A stretch of 64,000 bases of DNA from positions 21,125 through 85,124 of the forward strand of contig JBDRLW010000003.1 in assembly GCA_043812655.1 (NCBI GenBank), in the 5' to 3' direction. Positions 23,334 to 44,706 of the stretch are shown here, piece after piece. Source of the DNA: a bacterium. Its GTDB lineage: Bacteria; Margulisbacteria; WOR-1; O2-12-FULL-45-9; XYB2-FULL-48-7. The position numbers and the translations under genes are program-made. Each line of letters opens with the position of its first letter. Position 1 is the first letter of the stretch. The notes beneath the pieces were generated by a model that was not told where the DNA came from, made no database searches, and saw only the letters and a program-made list of their open reading frames with translations.

Positions 23334-24320
23334 TTAAGCCCCTATCATTTTATTGAGTTGCGGTATCGTAAGCCATTCATTGTTCGTGTCACTACTGTAA
23401 TAAAAATCCGCCTTGACCTTTTTACCCCGGGGATGATTGTTTGAGTCCCACCAGTTAAAGTCAGGTTCAATCACAAAACAATCATCAAGCTCTACCGTGT
23501 GCCTGGCGTCATCGGCCGAGATCATCACTTCGTGAAGCTTTTCACCCGCCCGGATGCCAATGAAGTTAACTTTACAATCAGGAGCGACGGCCTTTTTAAG
23601 GTCCATTATGTTCATGCTCGGAATCTTGGGAACAAAAACCTCTCCGCCGTGCATCCTCTCAAAATTCTTCAGTACAAACCTGACCCCCAGTTCCAGTGTT
23701 ATCCAAAACCGCGTCATCCGCTTATCGGTTATCGGGATAACCCCTTCTTTCATTTTCTCTCTAAAAAATGGAACCACACTCCCCCTGCTGCCTACTACAT
23801 TCCCATATCTAACAACCGCAAACCTGGTTCCTTGCAATCCCGAATATGAATTAGCGGCGGTAAATAATTTGTCAGAACAAAGCTTTGTCGCTCCGTAAAG
23901 GTTCACTGGATTACAAGCTTTATCAGTACTTAAGGCTATGACCTTTTTCACTTTGTGCTGCAGTGCCGTTTCGATAATGTTCATTGCTCCTAATACATTG
24001 GTTTTAATCGCTTCCGAGGGATTGTATTCCATAGAAGGGACGATCTTTAATGCGGCAGCATGAACAACATAATCAACCCCCGACATAGCTAAAGAAAGTC
24101 GTTCTTTATCCCGCACGTCTCCAATAAAAAATCGAACATTTTTGTCTTTTTCATAACCTTGCTGCATTTCAAATTGTTTCATCTCATCGCGGCTATAAAT
24201 AATTAGTTTTTTGGGCTTATATTCTTTCAATACTATTTCTATAAGTTTTTTACCGAACGAACCAGTTCCTCCTGTCACCAGTACAACCGCACCATCAAAA
24301 CAACCTTGCTTTTTATTCAT
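23334..24320 (-). CDS. UDP-N-acetylglucosamine 4,6-dehydratase (PseB/FlaA1/CapD short form)
   Basis: 'VLVTGGTGSFGKKL' Rossmann motif and 'YGATKLCSDKLF' (YxxxK). Length about 328 aa fits the PseB/FlaA1 family. Confidence 0.75.
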   Translation of the reverse strand: MNKKQGCFDGAVVLVTGGTGSFGKKLIEIVLKEYKPKKLIIYSRDEMKQFEMQQGYEKDKNVRFFIGDVRDKERLSLAMSGVDYVVHAAALKIVPSMEYNPSEAIKTNVLGAMNIIETALQHKVKKVIALSTDKACNPVNLYGATKLCSDKLFTAANSYSGLQGTRFAVVRYGNVVGSRGSVVPFFREKMKEGVIPITDKRMTRFWITLELGVRFVLKNFERMHGGEVFVPKIPSMNIMDLKKAVAPDCKVNFIGIRAGEKLHEVMISADDARHTVELDDCFVIEPDFNWWDSNNHPRGKKVKADFYYSSDTNNEWLTIPQLNKMIGA

Positions 24321-24540
24321 CTAATTTCTCAACCACCTTTTTATATGCTTTTTTTACCTTACTTGGGAGTGTCGGGTTCAACATTGCCAGTAATTCATGC
24401 CCAAGTATCCGATATTGGCCCCCGATCTTACCAGCGCGCAACACCCCCTTCTTTATTAAACGGCGGAAAGTGGAATCGGAGATCTTGAGCAGTTTTTGTG
24501 CTTCTTCCGAAGTATAAACTTCAGCTTCTTGAAGTATCAT
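24313..24540 (-). CDS. helix-turn-helix DNA-binding protein, excisionase/MerR-like family
   Basis: 75 aa. 'YTSEEAQKLLKISDSTFRRLIKKGVLRAGKIGGQYRI' matches the excisionase-family HTH pattern. Confidence 0.5.
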   Translation of the reverse strand: MILQEAEVYTSEEAQKLLKISDSTFRRLIKKGVLRAGKIGGQYRILGHELLAMLNPTLPSKVKKAYKKVVEKLDE

Positions 24541-24605
24541 GTTGCTATTATAAATAGGTATGCAAAACTTGTCAAGAGGCTATCAATAGTAGTCAACAGT
24601 AGTCA

Positions 24606-25514
24606 CTAATTGGCGGCTATCTTATGCCAATATTCTTGAATAAATAAGAAGAACACGCCAGCAAATAATCCGAGCGCCACCCCGATCATCACATTCAATT
24701 TAGTCCGTGGCCTACTCTTCGACTCTGGTTTTTCAGCTTTATCAACTACGGAAAAAGGTGGGATTTCTTTTGAAGCCTCAAGCTTGTTAGATTCCTTTTC
24801 CCGGCGCAACATAGTGTAAATAGAATTATATATCTCATAATCTCTTTGCAACCCACTTTGCCCCCCACCGAGAGGACTCCCTACAGAAGATAGCGGAACT
24901 AATTTCAATTTATCTTCAACTACTTTTAAATCCTTCTCCACTCGTGGCAACTCCTGTTCAATATATTTAAGTTTTTTTTGAGTTTCGGTAAAATTAAGCT
25001 CATTCCAATAATACTCTATAGCACTAATAAAACCATCGGCAACATCGGCCGCCAGCTGCGGTTCATTCGCTTCAACCTTAAGCTCTAAGATATTCCCATT
25101 CATTTTTGGCGGTTTCAGCATCCCTCTAACCGCTAAAACCAGATTTTTCCTTTTAAGTTTTGGGTTATCCCACCCTTTTATTCTTTTGGTTAGATCAAGA
25201 TCGTCAAGCACCTTAGCCGCTACTACTTTACTTTTTAAAAGTTCCGTAATGTCTCCCGCTCCTCCTCCTCCTCCTCCTCCTAAATTGACACCCAGCATGC
25301 TAGCCATCCCAGCATATTGCGATAAATTCCCGCCACCGCCCGAGCGGAATAAAAGAGTCGTTTTAGCTTCATAAACCAGCGGCTGCCTAAAGCTATAAAA
25401 TAAAGCCGCAATCGCAACAAATAATGTTACAAGCGCGATCGTTTTCCATTTTTTTAATATTACTTCAAGATATTCCCGCAAGTCAATTTCGTCGTCGTAA
25501 GATTCATTTGTCAT
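24606..25514 (-). CDS. wzz: polysaccharide chain-length determinant (Wzz/PCP family) with internal poly-Gly tract
   Basis: N-terminal 'REYLEVILKKWKTIALVTLFVAIAALFYSF' is a Wzz-like N-terminal TM segment. Central coiled region present. C-terminal TM 'IGVALGLFAGVFFLFI'. Confidence 0.6.
   Translation of the reverse strand: MTNESYDDEIDLREYLEVILKKWKTIALVTLFVAIAALFYSFRQPLVYEAKTTLLFRSGGGGNLSQYAGMASMLGVNLGGGGGGGAGDITELLKSKVVAAKVLDDLDLTKRIKGWDNPKLKRKNLVLAVRGMLKPPKMNGNILELKVEANEPQLAADVADGFISAIEYYWNELNFTETQKKLKYIEQELPRVEKDLKVVEDKLKLVPLSSVGSPLGGGQSGLQRDYEIYNSIYTMLRREKESNKLEASKEIPPFSVVDKAEKPESKSRPRTKLNVMIGVALGLFAGVFFLFIQEYWHKIAAN
25259..25283. repeat. (CCT)n trinucleotide tract encoding poly-Gly within wzz
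   Basis: 'tcctcctcctcctcctcctcct' read directly. It encodes the GGGGGGG run in the Wzz ORF. Confidence 0.7.
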
Positions 25515-25520
25515 CGTTTA

Positions 25521-25653
25521 GGCCTCCTTTAACTTATGAACTTAGGAACTAAAGAACGAAAAAACTTAGAAACTAAGGGACTAAAGAACTTAAAGACTTA
25601 AAACCAAGGGACTAAAAAACCAAAGAACTTAAAAAACAAAAGAACCTAGGAAC
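25521..25653. repeat. AAGAAC/ACTAAAGAAC-word-rich degenerate repeat (left inverted repeat of the TA/four-helix-bundle cassette)
   Basis: Read directly: 'gggactaaagaact...gggactaaaaaaccaaagaactt...aggaacttaagaac'. A reverse-complement copy lies at 27011-27050. Confidence 0.55.
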
Positions 25654-26052
25654 TTAAGAACTGCGAGTCATGCCATCCTTGCGAACTCTAGATGTAAAAG
25701 CTTTGAGTTGGCGGAAAATGTTTTCCGCTTTACTTAAGTACAATTTATGGTCAGCATCAATAATGTATCCATCGTCCAATGCCGCGTCCAAACAAGCCAC
25801 CACTTCACCAACCGAAGTTAAAGCTGTATTGAGAAATCTGCTAAAATCAACATCCGAATATCTTTCCGATCCTTCGGCAATATTTAGTAGGATTGAGTCC
25901 ATGGCTCGCCATAATTGTGAAGTTAAACAATATTGTTCTTCTTTAGGGAATTTTTTCTTGCTTAATTGTTTTAATCCAACCCTAAATTCGCGAGCATCTT
26001 TGTATACCGGAAACTCTCTAAATCTAAATACGCTTATTGTTTTTTCGTTCAT
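25654..26052 (-). CDS. four-helix-bundle protein (23S rRNA intervening-sequence protein family, PF05635/TIGR02436-like)
   Basis: 'FPKEEQYCLTSQLWRAMDSILLNIAEGSERYS' matches the conserved family core (FPKEE...L.SQ.RRAa.Si..NIAEG). Confidence 0.7.
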   Translation of the reverse strand: MNEKTISVFRFREFPVYKDAREFRVGLKQLSKKKFPKEEQYCLTSQLWRAMDSILLNIAEGSERYSDVDFSRFLNTALTSVGEVVACLDAALDDGYIIDADHKLYLSKAENIFRQLKAFTSRVRKDGMTRSS

Positions 26053-26067
26053 AAGTTCATAAGTTTA

Positions 26068-26736
26068 TCAGTTTATAAGTTCTTCAGTCTTTCCGTTCTT
26101 CATGATAAAATCAATTACCCGACCAAACGAATCATCAATGAACCGTTGGTCACGGTAAGTTATTAGTTGCTTTAGCTCTGGCTGATAAACATCTTTTATG
26201 AGTTGGCAACGCTCAAGCAATATTGGCAATTTCCCCTTAAAAACATCTAAATTCGCGATAAGCTTCTCCCTATCTTCATCTATCACTACTGCCAGGTCAA
26301 AAATATCCCGGCTTTTAAACTGTTCCGCCCGATAAAATATTTTTTTGACTATTATCTCCGGCGGGGTTTCAATGTTGATTTGATAACGTCCAACCTTCAT
26401 CTTTCCAATTGGCTCCTTGGTCAAATAAGGAGCGGCAATAAAATCAATAAAAACATCACCCTTTAACTTTATTTTGAGATAATTAGATTGTTCTTCCGCT
26501 CCAGCATAATCCTTGTCGCTTTCCACATGATCATTTAAACGTGGCGATAAACACGTTAAATATTGTACGTCGGTCAAAAAAATGTCTATGTCCTTACTGT
26601 AGCGGTGATGATAATAGGACATCAACGCCGTCCCTCCGCCAAACGACCATTTATTGACCGGTATTTGTGCTGATTCCAGGTAAGCAATAGCTTTCAATAA
26701 AATTTTTTCCCACTTTTCAGTTCTATTATTTAGCAT
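26068..26736 (-). CDS. nucleotidyltransferase, AbiEii/AbiGii toxin family (type IV TA toxin-like)
   Basis: 'WSFGGGTALMSYYHHRYSKDIDIFL' matches the AbiEii GGTAL...R.S.DID NTase core. Confidence 0.6.
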   Translation of the reverse strand: MLNNRTEKWEKILLKAIAYLESAQIPVNKWSFGGGTALMSYYHHRYSKDIDIFLTDVQYLTCLSPRLNDHVESDKDYAGAEEQSNYLKIKLKGDVFIDFIAAPYLTKEPIGKMKVGRYQINIETPPEIIVKKIFYRAEQFKSRDIFDLAVVIDEDREKLIANLDVFKGKLPILLERCQLIKDVYQPELKQLITYRDQRFIDDSFGRVIDFIMKNGKTEELIN

Positions 26737-27004
26737 ACTTGAAATACTCCTCGAACATAAGGTTGCGATAATATTTTCTCACGTTTTTTTTATAATAATT
26801 CAATGTTTGTAGCGCCGTCAACTTATGTTTCTTAATAAAACTCAGGATCGTGCTTAATGGTAATTCCGTAAAAAAAGCAAAGATATGGGCGTAATACTCG
26901 GCTTTCAATAAACCACTTCGAATGAGAGCGGCCGCCGTTTCCTCAGAAATCGGCTTTTTAACTGAAATATTGATAATGGAAAACAATGAATTATCTTTTT
27001 TCAT
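26726..27004 (-). CDS. small protein upstream of an AbiEii-like NTase; putative cognate antitoxin
   Basis: 92 aa, overlapping the NTase start. It shares a 'FIKKHKLTA'/'FAKKHGRQF' motif with the small ORF at 28692-28928. Confidence 0.3.
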   Translation of the reverse strand: MKKDNSLFSIINISVKKPISEETAAALIRSGLLKAEYYAHIFAFFTELPLSTILSFIKKHKLTALQTLNYYKKNVRKYYRNLMFEEYFKYAK

Positions 27005-27010
27005 TTTTTC

Positions 27011-27050
27011 AGTTCCTTCGTTCTTTGGTTCTTTAGTCCTTTGGTCTGTT
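27011..27050. repeat. right inverted repeat of the cassette (reverse complement of the AAGAAC-rich repeat)
   Basis: Its reverse complement 'gaacagaccaaaggactaaagaaccaaagaacgaaggaac' matches 25608-25650. Confidence 0.55.
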
Positions 27051-27161
27051 CTTCCTCTTCACCATTCATTATTCACGATTCACTTAATCCTTACCATGGC
27101 TCGACAGGCTCGCCATCCCAGCCATCCCGAGCTCAGTCGAGGGACTTACTACTTAATCTTT

Positions 27162-27995
27162 TTACTTCTTAATCACGCTATATAACGTCAAGCCAAGCAT
27201 GATCGTATTAACAAAGCCGGCAAAATCGGAAAAGTAAAAGAAATTCCCTGGGACATTAATCACATCGCCCCCTAGTATTTCCACATCATTTTTCGAGTCC
27301 CCATCATAAATGATCCTTGAGGCATTGATATATTTTTTATCAGGTTTTCCGTTTGCCTGCCTGGCAATTGTCACCGAGCCTAAAAGAGCCTTGGGGCTTG
27401 GCCCGCCGGCAAAGCTGATATAGTCAGACAACTTTTTACCTGGCAAATATTCAAACCGTCCAACCTTGTTCACTTCCCCATAAACGGAAACGTATTTTTT
27501 TTCGCCCATAAAAACCGGTTGGGCGCTATCCCCTGTCGCGTAGATATTAACCATTCTCGGTTGGATCAGCCGAAACGAAAAAACATATTTTTCCTTGTAC
27601 CCGCTTTTTATTTTTTTATCGATCGCTTTTTTGGCTTCAACAATAGAAAGTCCAAGCAGGTTGATCGCCCCAACTTTTGGGAAATAAATTGTCCCTCCCG
27701 GTTCAATCGTAAATATCTGATCGAGAGACATTTCATCTTCTCCAATGATCAGATTAGCAGAAACTATATCGCCAGGGCCAAGCTTATAGGTATTAACATC
27801 GATCGCGTCACCAACATAATCAGAAGTTACTGGCAAGCTAGAAGCTGGATTAGCCGCCGCATAAGCCCTTTTAACATCAGGAATTTGAAACCCCGAGTTT
27901 TTTAGATCATCCAAATTAACAGCAAAAATCGGAGAGCTCAATAAAATTATATTAATAACAAGAAAACTAGCTATATGCTTGATGATCTTTTTCAT
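27162..27995 (-). CDS. wza: polysaccharide export protein (Wza-like: Poly_export plus SLBB domains) with signal peptide
   Basis: N-terminal signal 'MKKIIKHIASFLVINIILLSSPIFA'. 'LGPGDIV' and 'IEPGGTIYFPKVG' are Poly_export/SLBB-like. Confidence 0.6.
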   Translation of the reverse strand: MKKIIKHIASFLVINIILLSSPIFAVNLDDLKNSGFQIPDVKRAYAAANPASSLPVTSDYVGDAIDVNTYKLGPGDIVSANLIIGEDEMSLDQIFTIEPGGTIYFPKVGAINLLGLSIVEAKKAIDKKIKSGYKEKYVFSFRLIQPRMVNIYATGDSAQPVFMGEKKYVSVYGEVNKVGRFEYLPGKKLSDYISFAGGPSPKALLGSVTIARQANGKPDKKYINASRIIYDGDSKNDVEILGGDVINVPGNFFYFSDFAGFVNTIMLGLTLYSVIKK

Positions 27996-28043
27996 AATCT
28001 CCCCCCCCCATTGATTTTATTTTACCAGATATTAGGCACATAT

Positions 28044-28688
28044 TTAGCCTGCCTCCTTGATCTTGTTGCGGAAAAAAGCGGCAATAGTCTTTGGTGCAGC
28101 CGGCTGTTCGCTTAGGTAACGAAGCTTTTCATCGACAACAATATCACCAGTAAATGCCAACTGCTCCAGGAACATCCGCTCGCTAAAGACCTCTCCATAT
28201 TTCTTTTTGGCTATATCAGTTATTTGATCAAGCGCGAGAAAATTATTTTTTACCATGACATAAAGATCAAAATAATCACGGTAATTACCGCGTCGGCCCA
28301 AAGCATATGCCTTGGTCGCCGCGATATCCTTGATCGATAATAACGGTAAATTTCCTGTTGTTTTCACCAATGGAAAAAGCGGTCGCCAATAATAATTCAA
28401 GAGCGTAATTTTAATATTGCCATCTAGAACTATTGTCAACTCATCAGCCGTATCGACTAGAGTGGTAAGATGATATTGGCGCAGTCCGCCCAGAAGTTTT
28501 CTTTTAACGGCAAAGGTAATATCCTTATCACGAAAAAGGTCGAAATCGAGTGACTCACGATGTCCTATCTGCAAAGCTAAAGCCGTACCACCGGCTAGAT
28601 AATAATCATGGCCTAATACTTTATTGAGCCTGGAAAAAACTGTCTTTCTTTCCGGATCAAGTATTTTCCAAAATAATTTTTTATTCAT
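28044..28688 (-). CDS. nucleotidyltransferase, AbiEii/AbiGii toxin family (second copy)
   Basis: 'YLAGGTALALQIGHRESLDFDLF' is the AbiEii NTase core motif. Confidence 0.6.
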   Translation of the reverse strand: MNKKLFWKILDPERKTVFSRLNKVLGHDYYLAGGTALALQIGHRESLDFDLFRDKDITFAVKRKLLGGLRQYHLTTLVDTADELTIVLDGNIKITLLNYYWRPLFPLVKTTGNLPLLSIKDIAATKAYALGRRGNYRDYFDLYVMVKNNFLALDQITDIAKKKYGEVFSERMFLEQLAFTGDIVVDEKLRYLSEQPAAPKTIAAFFRNKIKEAG

Positions 28689-28691
28689 TAT

Positions 28692-28928
28692 TTATGCAAA
28701 CAAAGCCTTAGCGAAAGGCAAGATACTTTTTCGGCTGAATTGCCTGCCATGTTTTTTGGCAAAATTATAGACCGATTTCCTTCCCAATTTCTTTGCCAAA
28801 TAACGCAAATGTTCCATCCTTCCTTTTTCCAAAGCCTGGAAGAGGATCGTATCCCTGTCCTTTTCCAGGGACATTTTATCAAAATCAGCAAACCATAAAA
28901 TTGACTTGAAATATAACGGCAGTCTCAT
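28692..28928 (-). CDS. small protein upstream of the second AbiEii-like NTase; putative cognate antitoxin
   Basis: 78 aa, 3 nt upstream of the NTase. It shares the KKH motif with the 26726-27004 product. Confidence 0.3.
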   Translation of the reverse strand: MRLPLYFKSILWFADFDKMSLEKDRDTILFQALEKGRMEHLRYLAKKLGRKSVYNFAKKHGRQFSRKSILPFAKALFA

Positions 28929-28932
28929 GATA

Positions 28933-30039
28933 TTATTTTACCAGATTTTCAAGATACTTTCCAATCGCCAAACAACTTGTCAACCCGGGACTCTCTATCC
29001 CAATCAAATTAATAAACCTTGGACAACCATTTTCTTTCTCTTCCTTGATCACAAAATCCCTAAACCCATCGTTTGGACCTTGAAGTTTTGGCCGCATTCC
29101 CGCTGTATCTGGCGCCAGCATCGCTTCATCGACCCAAGGCAAATAGGTTTTAACCGCTTGATAAAAATCTTTCCTTTTAGCTGGATCTACATCATAATAA
29201 ATTTTTTCGACATATTCAGTATCCGGCCCCAGTCTAATGTACCCATCAAGATCAAGAGTAGCATGCACTCCAAGCCCATGTCCCTGTTCATGCGGCACCG
29301 GATAAACCAGATGGTTTAATTTCCCTTTAGACCCAGTTACCCCGAAATAATCACCTTTACAATAATAGAGCCTGTAACCAAGCTTATCAATATCAAACCC
29401 GGCTAACTGCGCCATTTTATCGGCGTTTAAACCAGCACAGTTGATCACCCATTCACTCTGAATACTTTCCCCATTCTGATCAGTTAAAACATACCCATCC
29501 CCTTGTTTCTTTATCTCTTTTGTCTCGCTTCCAAACGCGAACATAACCCCGTTCTTCTCGGCTTTTTTATTTAAGCAATCCATTAAACCATGAGAATCAA
29601 TGATCCCCGTCGAACCGGAAAAAATACCGTTCAACGCAAAAACATTTGGTTCGAGAGCCAAAACATCTTCTTTTGTCAATAATCTTAGATCAGGGACCCC
29701 AACCGAAACAGCATTATTATAAATTGATTCTATTTTTTTGGCTTCAGCTTCGTTGGTTGAAATAATTATCTTGCCGCATTTTTTATGCTTCACACCATTT
29801 TCCGCACAAAACTGATATAAAAGTTTGTTACCTTGAAGACATAAAAGACTTTTCAATGAGTCTTTAGGATAATAAATCCCAGCGTGGATAACTTCACTAT
29901 TGCGGCTGCTAGTCTCTTGGCCAAAGCTATCATGCATCTCAAAAACTACGATATCGCCATCAATTTTTTGTGATAAGGCTTCGGCGATCGCAAGTCCAAT
30001 AACGCCGGCTCCAATTATTGATACTTTGACATTGTCCAT
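28933..30039 (-). CDS. FAD-dependent oxidoreductase (DAO family; L-2-hydroxyglutarate oxidase-like)
   Basis: 'VSIIGAGVIGLAIA' dinucleotide-binding motif. Length 368 aa. 'GLRP' and 'IGIESPGLTSCLAIG' at the C-terminus are typical of LhgO/DAO enzymes. Confidence 0.6.
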   Translation of the reverse strand: MDNVKVSIIGAGVIGLAIAEALSQKIDGDIVVFEMHDSFGQETSSRNSEVIHAGIYYPKDSLKSLLCLQGNKLLYQFCAENGVKHKKCGKIIISTNEAEAKKIESIYNNAVSVGVPDLRLLTKEDVLALEPNVFALNGIFSGSTGIIDSHGLMDCLNKKAEKNGVMFAFGSETKEIKKQGDGYVLTDQNGESIQSEWVINCAGLNADKMAQLAGFDIDKLGYRLYYCKGDYFGVTGSKGKLNHLVYPVPHEQGHGLGVHATLDLDGYIRLGPDTEYVEKIYYDVDPAKRKDFYQAVKTYLPWVDEAMLAPDTAGMRPKLQGPNDGFRDFVIKEEKENGCPRFINLIGIESPGLTSCLAIGKYLENLVK

Positions 30040-30041
30040 AT

Positions 30042-30461
30042 TTACCCCATCTGTCCCGCCTTCGGCGGGACATCTTCCCCTTGGTAAGGGGAAGAATATA
30101 AGGAATTATCAATCTTATCTCGAATACTAGCAATCACTTGTTCAAGATTATTAAAAACCTCTTCATTTGTAAAACGAATGAAATTGATTTCTAAACATTC
30201 TATCAATTTCTGTCGTGCTTTATCATAATTGCGTTGATTTCTACTAAGATGATAACCACCATCAATTTCAATTCCCAACCTGACTTCTGGTGAATAAAAA
30301 TCAATCACAAAACCCTTAATGCTATATTGTCTTCGGAACTTATGCCCATTAACTTTTCGTTTTCTTATTTGTTCCCATAATATTTTCTCGGCTTCCGTCA
30401 TATTCTTACGCAGTATTTGTCTTTTTTCTCGATCACGACTTCTATTATATATCTTTGTCAT
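30042..30461 (-). CDS. DUF559 endonuclease-domain protein (Vsr/PD-(D/E)xK-like)
   Basis: 'LRKNMTEAEKILWEQIR', 'FRRQYSIKGFVIDFY', 'LGIEIDGGYH' and 'YDKARQKLIECLEINFIRF' are the conserved DUF559 blocks. The C-terminal tail reads through a flanking inverted repeat. Confidence 0.65.
   Translation of the reverse strand: MTKIYNRSRDREKRQILRKNMTEAEKILWEQIRKRKVNGHKFRRQYSIKGFVIDFYSPEVRLGIEIDGGYHLSRNQRNYDKARQKLIECLEINFIRFTNEEVFNNLEQVIASIRDKIDNSLYSSPYQGEDVPPKAGQMG
30073..30093. repeat. inverted repeat flanking the DUF559 gene (left copy), containing palindrome CCCCTTGGTAAGGGG
   Basis: 'cttccccttggtaaggggaag' read directly. Its partner 'ctcccccttaccaagggggag' lies at 30497-30517. Confidence 0.65.
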
Positions 30462-30496
30462 AAACGCTGATTCTCCCCTATCTTTAACGCCGATAT

Positions 30497-30517
30497 CTCC
30501 CCCTTACCAAGGGGGAG
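30497..30517. repeat. inverted repeat flanking the DUF559 gene (right copy)
   Basis: Reverse complement of the core of the 30073-30093 repeat. Confidence 0.65.
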
Positions 30518-30539
30518 ATTATAGAGGGGGTAATCCATG

Positions 30540-33500
30540 TCACGAAGTGACAGAGGGGGTATGATAATCCTGCAGTGCCTTAACATCAAACCCTTTCTTC
30601 TTCGCGGCTTCAATGCCATTAACCGTAGCCTGGGCGCCAGAGATGGTGGTAATAAGAGGAATGTTATGCATAACCGCAGCGGAGCGGATCTTGGTTTCAT
30701 CAACCTTGGTCTGCTTGCCGCCAGGAGTATTTATTAGAAGTGAAATCTCCCCTTTATTAACTAAATCAAGAATGTCATTGCCACTTTCGCTTAATTTTTG
30801 AATAACTTCACAATCAATCCCGTTCTTCTTTAATACTCCGCCCGTCCCAGCCGTAGCCACAATGGAGAAGCCTAGGTCAGCCAATTTTTTAACAATATAA
30901 ACGATCGACCGCTTATCCCGGTTGTTGACCGAAACAAAGATCTTCCCCTTTAATGGTAAATTCTGCCCTGCCGCAATCTGCGACTTCATAAAAGCAGTCC
31001 CAAAATCGTTATCGATCCCCATCACTTCACCGGTTGAGCGCATCTCGGGACCCAAGATCGCATCGGCTCCAGGGAAACGATTAAACGGAAAGACCGCTTC
31101 TTTAACCGAGACATGTTTAGGCTCAACTTCGGTTAAAATCCCTTGCTGTTTTAGCGTTTTGCCAATCATCACCTTGGTCGCCACTTTGGCCCAAGGAACA
31201 CCGGTTGCCTTGGAGACAAAGGGAACGGTCCGTGAAGCCCGGGGATTGACCTCCAAAACATAGACCCGATCATTCTTGACCGCGAATTGGATATTCATTA
31301 AACCTTTAACTTTGAGCTCTTTAGCCATGGCATAAGTATTATGCTTAATGGTTTCAATGATATCGGCGCTTAAAGAAAATGGGGGTAATGAACAAGCGGA
31401 ATCTCCCGAATGGATCCCCGCTTCTTCGATATGCTCCATGATACCGCAAACCACCGTCTGCTTCCCATCAGAGACCGCGTCAACATCAACTTCGATCGCG
31501 TCTTCCAAAAACTTATCGACCAAAACTGGATGTTCAGGCGAAACTTGAACTGCTGTTGACATAAATTCATCTAGGTCTTTATCGTCATAAACAAGCCGCA
31601 TTGCCCGGCCGCCTAAGACGTACGAGGGCCGGACCAAACAAGGATAACCGATCTTTTTGGCGATCTTCCGCGCTTCCTTGGTTGAGTAAACGGTCCCGTT
31701 TGGCGCTTGATGCAATTTTAATTTTTTAAGCATGGCCGCGAAGCGTTTGCGGTCTTCCGCCCGGTCGATCTGCTTTGGGGAAGTCCCAATTATTCTTGCC
31801 CCTGCTTCTTTTAAAGGCAGAGCCAGATTCAACGGCGTTTGGCCGCCAAACTGGACAATGATCCCATCAGGCCTTTCTTTTTCAATGATACTTAGAACAT
31901 CTTCCCGCGTTAATGGTTCAAAATAAAGTTTGTCGGAAGTATCATAATCGGTCGAAACCGTTTCGGGGTTGGAATTGACCATGATCGATTCGATCCCTTC
32001 TTCCCGCAAGGCGAACGAGGCATGGACGCAGCAATAATCAAATTCGATCCCTTGCCCGATCCGATTCGGACCGCCGCCTAAGATCATTACCTTCTTTTTT
32101 TGGGTTCGCTTTACTTCATCTTCTTGCTCATAAGTCGAGTAATAATAAGGCGTGTAAGCTTCAAACTCAGCCGCGCAGGTATCGACCAGTTTATAAACTG
32201 GCGCGACCCCAAGCGCATTTCGCTTGGCATAAATTTCTTTTTCGGTTTTCCCGATCAAATAAGCCAGCTGTTTATCAGAAAATCCGCATTGCTTAGCTTG
32301 ATACAACAAATCTTTCTCTTCTAATATTCCCGGACCTTGGACCTTGATCCTGGTCTCTTCTTCTATTATCTCAACGATATTTTCTAAGAACCACGGATCA
32401 ACCTTGGTCAATTCATAGACCTTTTTTACCTGCATCCCCGTTTTAAGAGCGTGCTTAATATAGAAAATCCGGCGGTCATTGGGTGTCTTTAACTTTTCAA
32501 TTAATAATTCTTCTTTGATAAATTCTTTGCCGTCAGCCCCCAACCCCGCCCGGCCAACTTCGAGCGAGCGCAAACCTTTCTGCAGCGCTTCTTTAAATGT
32601 CCGCCCGATCGCCATCGTTTCACCAACCGACTTCATTGAGGTGCCGATTACAGCCGGAGTATCGGGGAACTTCTCAAACGTGAACCGGGGGATCTTCACT
32701 ACGCAATAATCGATCGACGGCTCAAACGAGGCCGGAGTTTCTTTGGTTATATCATTGGGGATTTCATCTAATGTATAGCCGACCGCCAACTTGGCCGCGA
32801 TCTTGGCGATCGGAAAACCGGTCGCTTTTGATGCCAAGGCTGACGAACGGGAAACTCGCGGATTCATTTCAATTATCACCATTCGCCCGGTATCTGGATG
32901 GACACCAAATTGGATATTGGAACCACCGGTTTCAACCCCGATCGCTCGGATCGCCGCTAGCGACTGGTCACGCATCTTTTGGTATTCTCTATCGGTTAAG
33001 GTTTGTGCTGGTGCCACAGTGATCGAATCACCAGTGTGAACCCCCATCGCGTCAAGATTCTCGATCGAACAGATAATGACAACATTATCTTTCTTGTCAC
33101 GCATCACCTCAAGTTCGTACTCTTTCCAACCAGTCAGGTCTTCTTCAATTAATACTTCGGAAGTCGGTGAAAGTTCCAGTCCTTTGCTCACTACTTCTTT
33201 ATATTCTTCCATCGTGTGGGCAACGCCAGAACCAGTGCCGCCAAGCGTAAAACTGGGACGAATAATAACTGGTAAACCAACACCATCGATCTTTTTTAGA
33301 GCTTCTTCAATCGTCTTGGCAAAAAAGCTCTTCGGAAGATCAAGCCCCGCTTCTTCCATCGCTTTTTTGAAGAGTTCTCGATTTTCCGCTTTTTTGATCG
33401 CTTTAACATCGGCCCCGATCATCTCGATCCCATATTTATCAAGGATCCCTGTTTCGGCAATCCCGATCGCGGTATTAAGCGCTGTTTGTCCGCCAATTGT

Positions 33501-33764: not shown

Positions 33765-34890
33765 GTCTCGACTCACTTCGTTCGCTCGACATTAAACTTG
33801 CGAAGTCATTAAACAAGTAATGGGCATCATGCGGTCCTGGTCCCGCCTCCGGATGATATTGGACAGAAAAGATCGGTAAGGTTTTATGTTTCATCCCTTC
33901 AACTGTCTTATCATTTAAATTAATGTGGGTCAGCTCGACCGTTCCTTTGGGAATGGAATCGATATCAACAGCAAACCCATGGTTTTGGGCAGTGATAGCC
34001 ACTTTTCTCGTCTGCAAATCCATAACCGGTTGGTTGCCGCCATGATGGCCAAACTTTAATTTATAGGTCTTGCCGCCTAAAGCTAGCCCTAACAATTGGT
34101 GTCCCAAACAGATCCCAAAGATCGGTTTCTTCCCGATTAGTTGTTTAATATTTTTGATCGCGTAAGTCACCGCCGCTGGATCAGCTGGCCCGTTAGACAG
34201 GAATATCCCGTCTGGATTCATGGCCATGACTTTTTCCGCCGGAAAATCGGCGGGGACAACAGTGACTCGACAACCCGCCGCAACAAGATTATTTAGAATA
34301 CTAAACTTGATCCCATAATCATACGCCACCACATTAAATTCAGGCTTTCTACATTCATTGGTCATTGGAAATTGGTCATTGGTCATTTTCCACTCATGCG
34401 GCTCTTTACAAGTAACGGTCTTAACCAGATCAACCCCTTCAACTCCCTGACAATTTTTGGCTCTCCTTATCAAATGCCTTTCATTTAAATCAACTGTCGA
34501 GATTATTCCTTTCAAAGAACCCTTTGTCCGCAGCCGCCGAGTTAACATCCGGGTATCGATCCCTTCGATCCCCACGATCCCATATTTTTTAAGATAGTCG
34601 CCAAGCCCGCTGGTCGAGCGGAAATTTGAAGCTATCCTTGAATTTTCCCTGACAATAAAACCTTCGCATTGGGGGATGGTCGACTCCAGGTCTTCTTCAT
34701 TAACACCGTAATTGCCGATCAAGGGGTAAGTCATCGTTACGATCTGGCCTTTGTAGGAAGGATCGGTCAAGATTTCTTGATAACCAGAAAGAGAGGTATT
34801 GAAAACGATCTCCCCGCTCTTCTCACCCTCGGAGCCAAAAGAGCGACCATGAAAAACCGTCCCATCTTCTAAAGCTAAAACTGCTTTCAT
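33757..34890 (-). CDS. carA: carbamoyl-phosphate synthase small subunit (glutamine amidotransferase)
   Basis: '[19 protein letters not shown]' is the canonical CarA start, chosen over the longer track ORF. The GATase triad region 'GICLGHQLL' is present. The C-terminal residues run into the hairpin repeat. Confidence 0.85.
33764..33789. repeat. GC-rich hairpin repeat family 'GTCTCGACTCACTTCGTTCGCTCGAC' at the carA/carB junction
   Basis: Read directly. Related copies occur at 38584-38608 and, in reverse complement, within 63797-63838. Confidence 0.55.
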
Positions 34891-34974: not shown

Positions 34975-35799
34975 TCAAACTGAGAAGATCTCAACCCCAC
35001 TATCAGCAGTTTCAACATAATAACTTCGACCATATTCTTTGCGGATCTCGCGTAATTTTTTATCATCAGCCGGGAAACCAAAGACGCTCGAGCCACTTCC
35101 CGACATCTGCGCAAAAGTACAACCCAATTCCAGCATTCGATCCTTAACTTTTTGAATGACCGGATATTTCTTTATCACTACAGATTCTAAATCGTTCTTA
35201 CTACCTTCATTTTTCATTTTGCATTTTTCATTTTTCATTTGACTCTCATCCCATGCGTCATATGCCCATTTTGTAGAGACCTCAACTTCAGGAATTACTA
35301 AAAGGTAATTACGCGTTTCGTTTAACGTATTACGCGTTACCCTTTCCCCCCGCCCCTTCACCGTACAATTCCCCCCCATAATGCAAAAAGGAACATCGGA
35401 ACCGATCTTAGCGCCTACGACCATTAGCTCTTCCTGGCTAAGCTTCTTACCATATATATTATTAAGGCCGACCAAAACCGCGGCGGCATCTGCCGAACCC
35501 CCAGCCAGCCCTGCCCCCACCGGGATCTGCTTCTCAATATATATCTTTATTCCGCTACTCCCTACCCCCTGCACCCTAAAAAACTCTTCTGCCGCCTTAT
35601 AAGCTAAATTCTTATTATTAGTTGGTAGCTGTAAATTGGTCGTAATGACTTCAATGCCGGAGTCAATTGGAGTTAATGTAAGAGTATCAAAAAGAGTGAC
35701 CGACTGCATGACCGACTCGAGTTCATGGTAGCTATCTTGGCGAGTCCCCAGGATTTTAAGCGAGAGGTTGATCTTGGCAAAAGCTTTAAGCTTCAGCAC
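34975..35799 (-). CDS. ispE: 4-(cytidine 5'-diphospho)-2-C-methyl-D-erythritol kinase
   Basis: 'KINLSLKILGTRQDSYHELESV' N-terminus and 'PVGAGLAGGSADAAAVLVGL' GHMP-kinase motif. It contains an extra in-frame tandem repeat 'KMKNEKCKMKNE'. Confidence 0.8.
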   Translation of the reverse strand: MLKLKAFAKINLSLKILGTRQDSYHELESVMQSVTLFDTLTLTPIDSGIEVITTNLQLPTNNKNLAYKAAEEFFRVQGVGSSGIKIYIEKQIPVGAGLAGGSADAAAVLVGLNNIYGKKLSQEELMVVGAKIGSDVPFCIMGGNCTVKGRGERVTRNTLNETRNYLLVIPEVEVSTKWAYDAWDESQMKNEKCKMKNEGSKNDLESVVIKKYPVIQKVKDRMLELGCTFAQMSGSGSSVFGFPADDKKLREIRKEYGRSYYVETADSGVEIFSV

Positions 35800-43464: not shown

Positions 43465-44706
43465 ATGTTTGGAATAAATGAAGTCGAGAGAGAAATAGGG
43501 TCAAGGGTCCAGGGTCCAAGGTCCAGAAGAATTAGCAGCATCTCCATCGATTCCCGCACTGTCCAACCCGGTGAACTATTTATCCCGATCAAAGGGGAGA
43601 AATTTGATGGGAATAAGTTTATTAAAGACGCTCTAGCCAAAGGGGCTTTTGTCGTCGAAACAAAAGACGGGCTAACCGCCCTGCACCAGCTCGCCGCTTA
43701 CCACCGCAGTAAATTTGATCTTCCGGTCATCGCCATCACCGGCAGTGTGGGGAAAACGACGACCAAAGACATGCTTGCCTCGATCCTCTCCCAAGCGATG
43801 CCAACCTTAAAGAACGAACAGAACTATAATAATGAAATAGGCGTCCCCCTCACCCTCCTTAAGCTGACCAAAAAGCATAAAGCCGCGGTAATTGAGATGG
43901 GCATGCAGGGAAAGGGAGAAATTGAGCTTTTGGCCAAGATCGCCAGGCCAACTATCGCCATTGTTACCAATATCGGCGAAGCCCACCTTGAACAACTGGG
44001 GACTAAAGCTAATATTGCCAAAGCTAAAGCCGAAGTCTTTAAATTCCTAAAAAAAGAAGATTGGGTGGTGATCAACGCGGATGATGAATACTACGAACAT
44101 TTAGTAGCCAGGGTCCAGGGTCCAGGGGCCAGGGTAAAAACCTTTGGTATTATTGAGAAGGCTGACATTAGAACAAAAGAATTGACGGGGATCAATCTGC
44201 CGCTGCCCGGCGAACACAACATTTATAACGCCCTGGCGGCGATCGCGGTGGCGAAAATCTTAAAAATTAAAAAGCCAGCCATTAAAAAAGGGCTGGAAAC
44301 TTTTAAGCCTTCCAGCAAGCGGATGGAAGTGATCAACCGGCCAGACGGGACAAAGATCATTAACGATACCTATAACGCTAATCCCCAATCAATGGCGGCA
44401 ACCCTAAAAGTCTTAGCCGGTATTGAGCGGCCAAATGTAAAAAGGATCGCAGTCTTGGGAAGTATGCTGGAACTTGGCAAACGCTCCAAAGCCGCTCATG
44501 CCAAGATAATTAAACTGGCCAAACAATTAAAGATCGACAAAGTCTTAACTTTTGGCGAATTCTGGCCAAGCCTGGCTCCAGCGGAAAAAACCAAAAAGAA
44601 CTTAATAAAAAAATTACGGCAATTAATAGCGCCTCGTGATATAATTTTAATCAAGGGCTCCCGGGGAATGAGGATGGAAGACGTGGTCGACGCGATCAGA
44701 ACTTAA
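43465..44706 (+). CDS. murF: UDP-N-acetylmuramoyl-tripeptide--D-alanyl-D-alanine ligase
   Basis: 'SIDSRTVQPGELFIPIKGEKFDGNKF', P-loop 'ITGSVGKTTTKDM', 'NADDEY', 'EHNIYNALAA' and 'INDTYNANPQSM'. Confidence 0.85.
   Translation: MFGINEVEREIGSRVQGPRSRRISSISIDSRTVQPGELFIPIKGEKFDGNKFIKDALAKGAFVVETKDGLTALHQLAAYHRSKFDLPVIAITGSVGKTTTKDMLASILSQAMPTLKNEQNYNNEIGVPLTLLKLTKKHKAAVIEMGMQGKGEIELLAKIARPTIAIVTNIGEAHLEQLGTKANIAKAKAEVFKFLKKEDWVVINADDEYYEHLVARVQGPGARVKTFGIIEKADIRTKELTGINLPLPGEHNIYNALAAIAVAKILKIKKPAIKKGLETFKPSSKRMEVINRPDGTKIINDTYNANPQSMAATLKVLAGIERPNVKRIAVLGSMLELGKRSKAAHAKIIKLAKQLKIDKVLTFGEFWPSLAPAEKTKKNLIKKLRQLIAPRDIILIKGSRGMRMEDVVDAIRT

What the first reader, a model, noticed from the sequence alone, without database searches (positions are those of the whole stretch)
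25515..27075. Three-gene cassette (four-helix-bundle protein, AbiEii-like NTase, small partner) bounded by inverted AAGAAC-rich repeats, inserted between wza and wzz
The exporter gene wza (27162-27995) is separated from wzz and the rest of the same-strand glycan operon by a 1.5-kb block. The block is flanked by sequences that are reverse complements of one another, 25578-25650 and 27011-27050, with the shared core 'GGACTAAAGAACCAAAGAAC'. It encodes an AbiEii-family nucleotidyltransferase with a small overlapping upstream ORF, a likely type IV toxin-antitoxin pair. It also encodes a PF05635-type four-helix-bundle protein, a family of unknown function typically found in intervening sequences. 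A third patch of the same word composition separates the 4HB gene from the NTase (26041-26100). This looks like a small mobile or insertion cassette that has landed inside a surface-polysaccharide operon.
Basis: seen in the sequence. Interest (0 to 1): 0.6.

Follow-up and report, generated by a model that had tools for sequence, protein, structure and literature searches.

The report
Repeat-bracketed selfish genes inside glycan operon
A 1.6-kb block of selfish genes sits between two sugar-export genes, and its small four-helix-bundle gene is wrapped in mirror-image runs of 8-base repeats, the same wrapping seen around this gene family in many unrelated bacteria, which suggests a widespread hairpin-type insertion element like the intervening sequences of ribosomal RNA.

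Summary
Three patches of a degenerate 8-nt tandem repeat occur nowhere else in the 64-kb window: A 25531-25666, B 26039-26100 and C 27005-27050. A is inverted relative to B and C.

The block is an insertion. In 15 of 15 related loci wza is followed directly by wzz, and the wza stop overlaps the wzz ribosome-binding site.

The unit is not a three-gene transposon. In about 60 loci from Saganbacteria, Omnitrophota, CPR, Planctomycetota, Bacteroidota and cultured cyanobacteria, PF05635 four-helix-bundle (4HB) genes alone are bracketed by inverted arrays of 7- or 8-nt units.
- The repeat word differs between lineages, but the downstream array is always the complement of the upstream one.
- The word tracks the protein across phyla.
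- The purine-rich arm is 5' on the sense strand in 43 of 50 loci.
- The gene points the same way as both neighbours in 35 of 41 loci.

This is the architecture of a 23S rRNA intervening sequence, here between cistrons.

In the window, the AbiEii-like nucleotidyltransferase (NTase) and its 92-aa partner are a separate module clipped at both ends. They interrupt the 5' arm (C+B) of one long hairpin whose 3' arm is A.

RNase III-type processing is inferred, not shown. I found no paper describing the general link between 4HB genes and these arrays.

The parts
27162..27995 (-). wza-like polysaccharide export gene. It is the host gene upstream of the insert.
   Evidence: Pfam Poly_export + SLBB. In 15 of 15 relatives it is directly followed by wzz.
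27051..27161 (-). Spacer at the 5' edge of the insert. It holds 7-nt-period units (GATTAAG/TGAATNN on the coding strand; TRF 27058-27083) interrupted by a 46-nt GC-rich hairpin at 27098-27144.
   Evidence: The hairpin is single-copy in the window. This sequence is absent from the wza/wzz junction of relatives.
27005..27050 (-). Array C: about 5 units of NNAAGAAC on the coding strand. It forms the outer part of the 5' arm.
   Evidence: In the MFE fold, 27040..27009 pairs with A 25544..25576 (29 bp). Duplex energy is -50.5 kcal/mol against -26 +/- 3.7 for shuffles.
26726..27004 (-). Small 92-aa partner ORF of the NTase, a putative antitoxin of unassigned family.
   Evidence: It is conserved next to NTase homologues in L092, L094, L095 and L096 (36-63% identity). 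It has no Pfam, NCBIfam or PADLOC match. The single-sequence AF2 model is all-helical but has low confidence.
26068..26736 (-). AbiEii-family nucleotidyltransferase. Its last ~10 residues (KNGKTEELIN) are encoded by array B.
   Evidence: PF08843 at 4.5e-12 and PADLOC AbiEii. The C-terminus differs from all homologues. DNA homology to L092 ends about 6 codons before the native stop.
26039..26100 (-). Array B: about 7 units of NNAAGAAC / AACTTATG on the coding strand. It forms the inner part of the 5' arm and contains the 4HB start codon.
   Evidence: In the MFE fold, 26100..26039 pairs with A 25584..25645 (47 bp). Duplex energy is -46.4 kcal/mol against -22.6 +/- 4.1 for shuffles.
25654..26052 (-). 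Four-helix-bundle protein gene (PF05635 / TIGR02436). It lies in the loop of the hairpin.
   Evidence: PDB 2gsc matches at E 8e-12. Homologues are 63-81% identical across several phyla.
25531..25666 (-). Array A: about 17 units of GTTCTTNN on the coding strand. It is the 3' arm and contains the 4HB stop codon (GTTCTTAA).
25515..25530 (-). Retained Shine-Dalgarno region of wzz (AAAGGAGG, 7 nt before the ATG). It marks the 3' edge of the insert.
   Evidence: In relatives the wza stop overlaps this SD (TAGGAGG...ATG).
24606..25514 (-). wzz-like chain-length determinant gene. It is the host gene downstream of the insert.
   Evidence: Pfam Wzz + GNVR.
28044..28928 (-). Second, unrelated AbiEii NTase (28044-28688) with a 78-aa partner (28692-28928), inserted between the FAD oxidoreductase gene and wza.
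   Evidence: PF08843 at 8e-14 and a weak DUF6922 match. The two NTases share only the active-site motif. This pair is absent from relatives' operons.

Best explanation
The 1.65-kb block between the wza stop codon and the wzz ribosome-binding site is a composite of two independent selfish modules.

Module 1 is an intervening-sequence-like hairpin element.
- It carries a PF05635 four-helix-bundle ORF.
- The 5' flank is a purine-rich array of 8-nt units (NNAAGAAC). The 3' flank is the complementary array (GTTCTTNN).
- In the sense transcript the two arrays pair into a long imperfect stem, with the ORF in the loop and its start and stop codons inside the stem.
- By analogy with 23S rRNA intervening sequences, I infer that the stem is cut by RNase III without religation. 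This is harmless between cistrons, between tRNAs, or at rRNA helix tips.
- That would let the element sit in operons while riding on host transcription.

Module 2 is an AbiEii-type nucleotidyltransferase with a conserved ~90-aa partner, a toxin-antitoxin-like pair.
- It lies inside the 5' arm and splits it into C and B.
- It has lost its own promoter and its last ~6 codons to the arrays.

wzz keeps its own Shine-Dalgarno sequence, so the operon stays functional.

Shown here: the anatomy, the insertion status, the complementarity, the family-wide association, the strand polarity and the co-orientation with neighbours.
Inferred: RNA-level pairing, RNase III processing, and the order of the insertion events.

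The confidence of 0.55 is for the whole statement. I put the anatomy and composite-insertion part at about 0.85 and the RNA-processing mechanism at about 0.4.
For: Insertion:
- 15 of 15 relatives have wza and wzz adjacent, with the wza stop overlapping the wzz SD and no arrays.

One interrupted hairpin:
- The MFE of the whole insert gives nested stems: C 27040..27009 with A 25544..25576 (29 bp), and B 26100..26039 with A 25584..25645 (47 bp). The two A segments are 7 nt apart.
- Duplex energies lie about 6 sd below shuffled arms.

Family-wide architecture:
- 4HB flanks show an inverted match of score >=12 in 35 of 61 loci, against 6 of 300 control ORFs and 8.3% of mismatched locus pairs.
- Exact 4-mer chains of at least 3 units occur in 29 of 61 upstream and 39 of 61 downstream flanks. 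All but one have period 7 or 8. Controls show about 6%.
- 49 of 86 arrays lie within 150 nt of a 4HB ORF, a zone that is 13% of the sequence.
- Words differ between lineages (AAGAAC, GAGAAAC, GAAAAAC, TGACAAT, TCAGGAG, AAGGGCT, TAGCT), yet the 3' array is always the complement of the 5' array.
- The same holds on plasmids of cultured Nostoc and Aulosira.

Arrays travel with the ORF:
- Word similarity tracks protein identity, also between phyla.
- The protein is 63-81% identical across phyla.

Sense-strand function:
- The 5' arm is purine-rich in 43 of 50 loci (p = 2e-7).
- The arms end a median 9 nt before the ATG and start a median 5 nt after the stop.
- The gene is co-oriented with both neighbours in 35 of 41 loci, against 1 in the opposite orientation.

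Precedent:
- The Coxiella IVS has a 28-bp terminal stem cut by RNase III and 2-3 tandem heptamers upstream of its S23p ORF (PMC4990558).

The TA pair is a separate module:
- The pair occurs alone with its own TGTTGTATAAT promoter in L094 and L096.
- Homology to L092 starts at the ATG and stops ~6 codons before the native stop.
- No NTase neighbours the 4HB gene in the other 61 loci.
Against: - No transcript data exist, and RNase III cleavage is purely by analogy.
- The G:U versus A:C mismatch test is only marginal (83 vs 57, p = 0.055), so a DNA-level role of the inverted arrays is not excluded.
- The repeats are periodic, so many pairing registers are possible. The best ungapped match of B is to the far end of A (25531-25565), which would not nest with the C:A match.
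- The 581-nt 4HB unit as a whole does not fold better than shuffles (z = -1.3).
- The loci are phylogenetically related, so the counts are not independent events.
- One cyanobacterial case has direct rather than inverted arrays (L100).
- NTase-then-4HB adjacency recurs in L092, which a pure coincidence model explains only weakly.
- No mechanism of DNA mobility is identified.
Confidence: 0.55

Rival explanations
1. The three genes form one mobile cassette whose ends are the inverted AAGAAC-rich repeats (C and A), and it moves as a unit like a small transposon or MITE-like element.
For: - C and A are 92% complementary over 26 nt.
- The site is empty in 15 relatives.
- The same gene trio (small ORF, NTase, 4HB) occurs in L092 at a different position of a similar operon.
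- The TA pair is more similar between the window and L092 (62-68%) than the surrounding operon genes are (40-56%).
Against: - No transposase, integrase or recombinase is present in or near the block.
- No target-site duplication was seen.
- The L092 trio has a non-orthologous 4HB (36% identity), a different repeat word and no array upstream of the small ORF.
- Arrays bracket the 4HB gene alone in about 60 other loci.
- The TA pair occurs alone without arrays.
Confidence: 0.13
2. The arrays work as double-stranded DNA sites for a multimeric protein, and their inverted arrangement reflects protein geometry rather than RNA pairing. Candidate proteins are the pentameric 4HB protein itself or a nucleoid or regulator protein. 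The regulator idea was proposed for the paired octa- and heptanucleotide arrays of Geobacter metallireducens.
For: - Typical arrays have 4-6 units, close to the five subunits of the 2gsc-type pentamer (pentamer cited in PMC4990558).
- The repeat word tracks the protein clade.
- The Geobacter paper read such pairs as global-regulator or IHF/HU sites (PMC2700814).
- The G:U test does not clearly favour RNA.
Against: - The strong sense-strand polarity of the purine-rich arm (43 of 50) and the co-orientation with the operon are not needed for a dsDNA site.
- An 8- or 7-nt period does not match the DNA helical repeat.
- ORF-less pairs whose arms directly abut (L016 3096-3215) look like hairpins.
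- The classical IVS stem is an RNase III substrate.
Confidence: 0.15
3. The NTase, the small ORF and the 4HB protein form one three-component toxin-antitoxin or defence system, with the 4HB protein as a functional partner of the NTase.
For: - An NTase directly followed by a 4HB gene occurs twice with non-orthologous 4HB proteins (the window and L092).
- In WOR-1 loci the 4HB gene sits among MNT/HEPN and HicAB modules.
Against: - None of the other 61 4HB loci has an AbiEii NTase next to the 4HB gene.
- NTase pairs occur without a 4HB gene.
- No profile similarity was found between the 4HB protein and a HEPN partner.
- No PADLOC model matches the 4HB protein.
Confidence: 0.06
4. The patches are ordinary slippage-prone, AT-rich intergenic low-complexity sequence with no relation to each other or to the genes.
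For: The units are degenerate, at 64-85% identity. The whole-unit fold z-score is weak.
Against: - They are unique in 64 kb.
- The core sequence has 3 hits against 0.01 expected.
- Duplex energies lie about 6 sd below shuffles.
- The same architecture recurs around homologous genes in unrelated phyla.
Confidence: 0.02

Closest known systems
23S rRNA intervening sequences carrying an S23p/PF05635 ORF (Leptospira, Coxiella, Brucella, Xanthomonas)
   Same: - The ORF family is the same: PF05635, with PDB 2gsc at E 8e-12.
- The ORF lies in the loop of a stem formed by complementary termini.
- Short tandem repeats lie just upstream of the ATG. Coxiella has GACAGAT x2-3 with variable copy number (PMC4990558).
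- The distribution is sporadic and looks horizontally transferred.
[quoted passage not shown]
   Different: - Here the element lies between protein-coding cistrons, and in other loci between tRNA genes, not in rRNA helix 25 or 45.
- The arms are long periodic arrays of 5-17 units rather than a unique 28-bp stem.
- The 5' arm carries a toxin-antitoxin-like cargo.
- The protein is strongly conserved, whereas the Coxiella ORF is decaying.
- Processing by RNase III is untested.
Paired tandem octa- and heptanucleotide arrays of Geobacter metallireducens (classes 1-3 'global regulator sites', PMC2700814) and cyanobacterial STRR heptamer repeats (STRR from my own knowledge: Mazel et al. 1990)
   Same: - Tandem 7- or 8-nt units, 3-5 or more per array.
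- They occur in pairs on opposite strands.
- They lie between co-transcribed genes such as nifD/nifK and proB/proA.
- One Geobacter word (MTYCTGA) matches the word flanking 4HB genes in Nostoc, Aulosira and Cytophagales loci.
   Different: - The Geobacter pairs were described without an ORF, or with IS110 elements between the arms, and were interpreted as protein-binding sites.
- I found no paper linking either kind of repeat to PF05635 genes in the searchable library.
- I could not examine the Geobacter genome itself.
AbiE type IV toxin-antitoxin / abortive infection system (AbiEi + AbiEii)
   Same: - The toxin-like gene has the PF08843 AbiEii nucleotidyltransferase domain with the GGG...DxD motif.
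- It is bicistronic, with an 11-nt overlap with an upstream small gene.
- The two-gene module is conserved and inserted sporadically between housekeeping genes.
   Different: - The upstream partner is about 90 aa, all-helical, and matches neither AbiEi nor any other family.
- The NTase belongs to a rare, distant subfamily (51 database hits).
- In this copy the module has lost its promoter and its native C-terminus.
REP/REPIN elements with their RAYT genes; MITEs
   Same: - Short hairpin-forming repeats are dispersed between genes.
- A protein gene is itself flanked by the repeats.
- ORF-less copies with the same word occur in the same genome (L016, L001).
   Different: - The 4HB protein has no recognisable transposase or nuclease fold.
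- The arms are periodic arrays.
- No evidence of copy-number amplification is available from one 64-kb window.
Avd accessory proteins of diversity-generating retroelements
   Same: Same Pfam superfamily. A weak bAvd hit appears on a neighbouring paralogue in L010. Avd is a small, basic, pentameric four-helix bundle that binds nucleic acid and a reverse transcriptase.
   Different: No reverse transcriptase and no template/variable repeat pair lie in the block or its flanks.

Membership tests
PF05635 / TIGR02436 four-helix-bundle (23S rRNA IVS protein) family | The profile HMM match exceeds the curated cut-off. | tested here: met
   PF05635 89.7 bits against 33.8. TIGR02436 84.1 bits against 24.
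PF05635 / TIGR02436 four-helix-bundle (23S rRNA IVS protein) family | Sequence relationship to solved four-helix-bundle pentamers. | tested here: met
   PDB 2gsc at E 7.9e-12 and 2rld at E 5.6e-4. The oligomeric state was not modelled.
Classical intervening sequence (IVS) element | The insert is bounded by complementary termini that form a stem with the ORF in the loop. | tested here: met
   The same holds for 35-50 of about 60 homologous loci.
Classical intervening sequence (IVS) element | The element is located in a 23S (or 16S) rRNA helix. | tested here: not met
   It lies between wza and wzz. No rRNA or any Rfam family is found in 24000-29500.
Classical intervening sequence (IVS) element | The element is excised from the transcript by RNase III without religation. 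| not testable with these tools
AbiE (type IV TA / abortive infection) | An AbiEii nucleotidyltransferase toxin (PF08843) is present. | tested here: met
   46.8 bits against 22.5. PADLOC AbiEii models match at 2e-5. The GGGTAL...DIDIF motif is invariant in homologues.
AbiE (type IV TA / abortive infection) | An AbiEi antitoxin (winged-helix transcriptional autorepressor) is encoded upstream. | tested here: not met
   The 92-aa partner has no Pfam, NCBIfam or PADLOC match. The AF2 model has low confidence.
AbiE (type IV TA / abortive infection) | The NTase is toxic and the partner neutralises it. | not testable with these tools
   This needs an expression assay.
Transposon / IS / MITE bounded by terminal inverted repeats | A transposase or recombinase is present, or multiple dispersed copies with identical ends. 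| tested here: not met
   No such gene is in the block. The arrays are unique in the window. The only other trio (L092) has different ends.
Transposon / IS / MITE bounded by terminal inverted repeats | A target-site duplication lies at the insert boundaries. | tested here: inconclusive
   No clear duplication appears at TAA|AAAGATT...GTTAA|AGGAGG. The relatives are too distant (41-60% identity) to define the exact junction.
Paired tandem hepta-/octanucleotide arrays (Geobacter classes 1-3; cyanobacterial STRR) | At least 3 tandem 7- or 8-nt units, occurring as pairs on opposite strands between co-directional genes. | tested here: met
.

The most novel reading that the evidence does not exclude
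PF05635 four-helix-bundle genes together with their inverted 7/8-nt arrays would form a widespread, autonomous class of minimal mobile element.
- The pentameric protein would recognise its own tandem units, one unit per subunit, with a clade-specific word.
- It would drive spread or maintenance of ORF-containing and ORF-less hairpins into positions where RNA continuity is dispensable: rRNA helix tips, tRNA spacers and intercistronic junctions.
- This would unify rRNA intervening sequences, cyanobacterial STRR repeats and the Geobacter 'global regulator sites' as one phenomenon.
- It would also give the family its first function.
Probability: 0.12. Interest if true: 0.85.

Novelty: new variant of a known kind. 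Interest (0 to 1): 0.6.

Why it matters
PF05635 is a very large family that has had no function since its discovery in rRNA intervening sequences in the early 1990s. Cyanobacterial heptamer repeats and the paired octamer and heptamer arrays of Geobacter have been unexplained for just as long.

The data here give one testable architecture for these proteins outside rRNA:
- The genes are bracketed across phyla by complementary periodic arrays whose word travels with the protein.
- The arms have a fixed sense-strand polarity.
- The genes sit in the sense orientation inside operons.

This suggests why such inserts are tolerated: cleavage without ligation is harmless between cistrons.

For annotation, the finding warns of three things. 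Array-encoded N- or C-terminal extensions of neighbouring genes are artefacts or recent chimeras. A '4HB next to NTase' arrangement is not a system. Surface-polysaccharide operons can be peppered with such passengers without being disrupted.

Tried and rejected
- Exact-protein look-up of the window 4HB gene found no contig on record.
- Rfam at E<=1 found nothing in 24000-29500.
- The promoter/terminator scan found no more sites than shuffles, and none marking the insert edges.
- A viral-contig scan for 4HB relatives found none, so phage carriage is unsupported.
- Structure prediction of the small ORF was unhelpful.
- Profile comparisons found no relation between small1 and small2 or between the 4HB protein and a HEPN domain. 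The idea that 4HB is a HEPN-like partner of the NTase was therefore dropped.
- A first periodicity detector was too strict for degenerate arrays (>=75% self-identity over 32 nt). It was replaced by 4-mer chains.
- The G:U versus A:C asymmetry test, meant to separate RNA from DNA pairing, was inconclusive.
- Literature: six full-text searches found no paper linking PF05635 genes to flanking tandem arrays outside rRNA. The Elhai 2008 paper on cyanobacterial small repeats is not held.
- Considered and rejected: a CRISPR-like array (no spacers, 8-nt period) and a phase-variation tract controlling wzz (the arrays are intergenic and the SD is retained).
Full report
**1. What is in the sequence**

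All genes in 24.3-30.1 kb lie on the minus strand. Family scans give the following.
- wzz 24606-25514: Wzz + GNVR.
- A four-helix-bundle (4HB) protein 25654-26052: PF05635 89.7 bits, TIGR02436 84.1 bits, PDB 2gsc at E 8e-12.
- An AbiEii-family nucleotidyltransferase (NTase) 26068-26736: PF08843 46.8 bits.
- An 11-nt-overlapping 92-aa ORF 26726-27004 with no family match.
- wza 27162-27995: Poly_export + SLBB.

The 'AAGAAC-rich' patches are three degenerate tandem arrays with an 8-nt period.
- A 25531-25666: about 17 units.
- B 26039-26100: about 7 units. It contains the NTase stop and the 4HB start.
- C 27005-27050: about 5 units. It ends at the small-ORF ATG.

On the coding (minus) strand, C and B read NNAAGAAC and A reads GTTCTTNN. 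No other array of this kind exists in the 64-kb window.

**2. It is an insertion**

A metagenome scan with Wza returned 15 loci at 23-60% identity.
- In every one, wzz follows wza directly, and none has a 4HB, NTase or small ORF between them.
- In the closer relatives the wza stop codon overlaps the wzz Shine-Dalgarno sequence (TAGGAGG...ATG, 7-15 nt) and there are no arrays.
- In the window, 1.65 kb (25515/25531-27161) sits exactly between the wza stop and a retained AAAGGAGG.
- The second AbiEii pair at 28044-28928 is likewise absent from relatives, so wza is flanked by two independent passenger insertions.

**3. The arrays belong to the 4HB gene family, not to the trio**

Homologues of the 4HB protein are 63-81% identical in Saganbacteria/WOR-1, Omnitrophota, many CPR lineages, Dehalococcoidia and others. 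That is far more than housekeeping proteins of such distant hosts would be.

Reading their flanks shows the same bracket again and again. A purine-rich array lies upstream and its reverse complement lies downstream, with period 8 in close relatives and period 7 in more distant ones.

The word changes between lineages:
- AAGAAC/GTTCTT
- GAGAAAC/GTTTCTC
- GAAAAAC/GTTTTTC
- TGACAAT/ATTGTCA
- TCAGGAG/CTCCTGA
- AAGGGCT/AGCCCTT
- TAGCT/AGCTA, for a second paralogue in the same CPR contig

The two sides always match each other.

Quantitatively:
- The best inverted match between 120-nt flanks scores >=12 in 35 of 61 4HB ORFs. The comparison values are 6 of 300 control ORFs, 1 of 61 after shuffling, and 8.3% for upstream flanks paired with another locus's downstream flank.
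- Chains of at least 3 exact 4-mers occur in 29 of 61 upstream and 39 of 61 downstream flanks, all but one with period 7 or 8, against about 6% of controls.
- 49 of 86 arrays in 333 kb lie within 150 nt of a 4HB ORF, a zone covering 13% of the sequence.
- Word similarity rises with protein identity, also for pairs from different phyla. The arrays therefore travel with the ORF.
- Three of four 4HB genes examined on plasmids of cultured cyanobacteria show the same inverted heptamer brackets. One, between cas6 and cas4, has direct arrays.
- ORF-less hairpins with the resident word also occur (L001; L016 3096-3215).

**4. Polarity and context**

- The purine-rich arm is 5' on the sense strand in 43 of 50 loci (p = 2e-7).
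- The 5' arm ends a median 9 nt before the ATG, and the 3' arm starts a median 5 nt after the stop, often including it.
- The 4HB gene points the same way as both neighbours in 35 of 41 resolvable loci, and opposite to both in only one.
- Several units lie between tRNA genes.

These features fit a function in the sense transcript that depends on read-through transcription. A direct test of RNA against DNA pairing, using G:U-compatible versus A:C mismatches, gave 83 vs 57 against an expected ratio of 1.09 (p = 0.055). That result is suggestive only.

**5. The NTase pair is a separate module lodged in the 5' arm**

- The NTase belongs to a rare AbiEii subfamily (51 hits).
- It is always preceded by an 88-94-aa partner.
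- In L094 and L096 the pair stands alone between housekeeping genes with a TGTTGTATAAT promoter and no arrays.
- In the window, DNA and protein homology to the closest relative (L092) starts at the small-ORF ATG. It stops about 6 codons before the native NTase stop, and the last ten residues (KNGKTEELIN) are array-encoded.

Folding the whole insert as RNA gives a nested two-tier stem.
- C 27040..27009 pairs with A 25544..25576 (29 bp).
- B 26100..26039 pairs with A 25584..25645 (47 bp).
- The two A segments are 7 nt apart.
- Duplex energies are -50.5 and -46.4 kcal/mol, against -26 +/- 4 and -23 +/- 4 for shuffled arms.

The simplest reading is one long hairpin element (5' arm C+B, loop = 4HB ORF, 3' arm A) whose 5' arm is interrupted by a clipped TA-like module. 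Because the arrays are periodic, other registers are possible. One is B with 25531-25565 at 86%.

**6. The trio in L092**

The closest NTase homologue lies in a similar operon but at another junction: FAD oxidoreductase-[small-NTase-4HB]-HTH-wza-wzz.
- Its TA pair is 62-68% identical to the window's, more than wza (56%), wzz (43%) or the oxidoreductase (40%).
- Its 4HB is only 36% identical and carries a different 7-nt word (GACCNNN/NNNGGTC).
- There is no array upstream of the small ORF.
- None of the other 61 4HB loci has an AbiEii gene beside the 4HB gene.

I therefore treat the adjacency as co-accumulation of passengers at permissive operon junctions. A functional link is kept as a low-probability rival.

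**7. Mechanism proposed**

Shown:
- an ORF-in-loop hairpin architecture conserved by word-level covariation
- sense polarity
- operon co-orientation
- horizontal spread

Inferred by analogy with the classical IVS: the arms pair in the transcript and are cut by RNase III without religation. The Coxiella IVS has a 28-bp terminal stem cut by RNase III in vitro, tandem heptamers upstream of the S23p ATG, and cleavage that removes the SD (PMC4990558).

Such cleavage is harmless where RNA continuity is not needed, at rRNA helix tips, tRNA spacers and intercistronic junctions. These are the places where these units are found. In the window this would separate the wza, TA, 4HB and wzz segments while wzz keeps its own SD. 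How the DNA moves is unknown.

**8. Relation to what is known**

- The Geobacter metallireducens genome paper catalogued 24 + 21 + 8 pairs of inverted tandem octa-/heptanucleotide arrays between genes. It read them as regulator or IHF sites, and IS110 elements often lie between the arms. It also catalogued 49 intragenic or intergenic (GGACCGG)x4 arrays (PMC2700814).
- Its class 3 word (MTYCTGA) is the word around 4HB genes in Nostoc, Aulosira and Cytophagales loci.
- Cyanobacterial STRR heptamers (my own knowledge) look like the same material.
- Six full-text searches found no paper connecting these arrays to PF05635 genes outside rRNA. The library is incomplete, so prior description cannot be excluded.

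**9. Verdict**

An insertion, yes. A three-gene transposon with terminal repeats, no.
- The locus is a new variant of a known kind: an IVS-type 4HB hairpin element in an mRNA operon, carrying a clipped AbiEii-like pair in one arm.
- The local event is ordinary passenger DNA.
- The family-wide array architecture is the part worth following up.

Noticed in passing
window 34355-34387 (carA), 35206-35240 (ispE), 43497-43526 and 44108-44135 (murF): Tandem heptamer arrays of 4-5 units lie in frame inside conserved housekeeping genes. They are (TGACCAA)n in carA, giving '[11 protein letters not shown]'; (ATGAAAA)n in ispE, giving 'MKNEKCKMKNE'; and (AGGGTCC)n twice in murF, giving 'RVQGPRSR' and 'RVQGPGAR'. 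They resemble the intragenic (GGACCGG)x4 elements reported in Geobacter metallireducens and cyanobacterial STRR units.
   Followed up: partly
window 27051-27161: The wza/small-ORF spacer holds 7-nt-period units (GATTAAG, TGAATNN). They are interrupted by a 46-nt GC-rich hairpin (27098-27144, CTCGAC...GTCGAG) flanked by GATTAAGT on both sides, like a tiny element inserted into a heptamer array. The hairpin is single-copy in the window.
   Followed up: partly
window 28044-28928: A second, unrelated AbiEii NTase (214 aa) with a 78-aa partner (weak DUF6922 match) is packed between the FAD oxidoreductase gene and wza. It has no arrays and is absent from relatives' operons. A homologue occurs in a Saganbacteria MAG (L019).
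   Followed up: partly
window 28001-28009: A run of nine C (G9 on the coding strand) lies directly in front of the wza ribosome-binding site (GGGGGGGGGAGATTATG). It could be a slippage tract affecting wza translation.
   Followed up: no
window 25259-25281: A perfect (CTC)x7.7 repeat inside wzz encodes a run of glycines (GGGGGGG) in the periplasmic part of the protein.
   Followed up: no
window 30042-30560: A DUF559 / MTES_1575-type endonuclease-like gene lies here. Short G-rich words appear at its 3' end and in the next spacer, read in ORF translations as PYQGED, PLTKGK and PYQGGDYRGG. This may be another small repeat family.
   Followed up: no
L016 3096-3215; L001 about 620-790; L021 1107-1266: ORF-less hairpins are made of the same array words as the resident 4HB element, for example AAGAAC x11 directly followed by GTTCATAA x4. 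In L016 the hairpin lies between MNT/HEPN and HicAB toxin-antitoxin modules.
   Followed up: partly
L100 (Pseudanabaena galeata plasmid pPg_01) 1492-1851: A 4HB gene between cas6 and cas4 is flanked by direct rather than inverted heptamer arrays, (AGCTAAA)x16 upstream and (AGCCAAA)x10 downstream. This is an exception to the inverted rule.
   Followed up: no
L059-L064: Several 4HB units with their arrays sit immediately next to or between tRNA genes. The flanks show tRNA 3' ends such as GGTTCGATTCC.
   Followed up: no
proteins P0010, P0024, P0107: Public gene calls for some 4HB homologues carry N-terminal extensions such as 'MNLKTEEPENRKTD'. These are simply the upstream AAGAAC array translated and are probably mis-called starts.
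   Followed up: no
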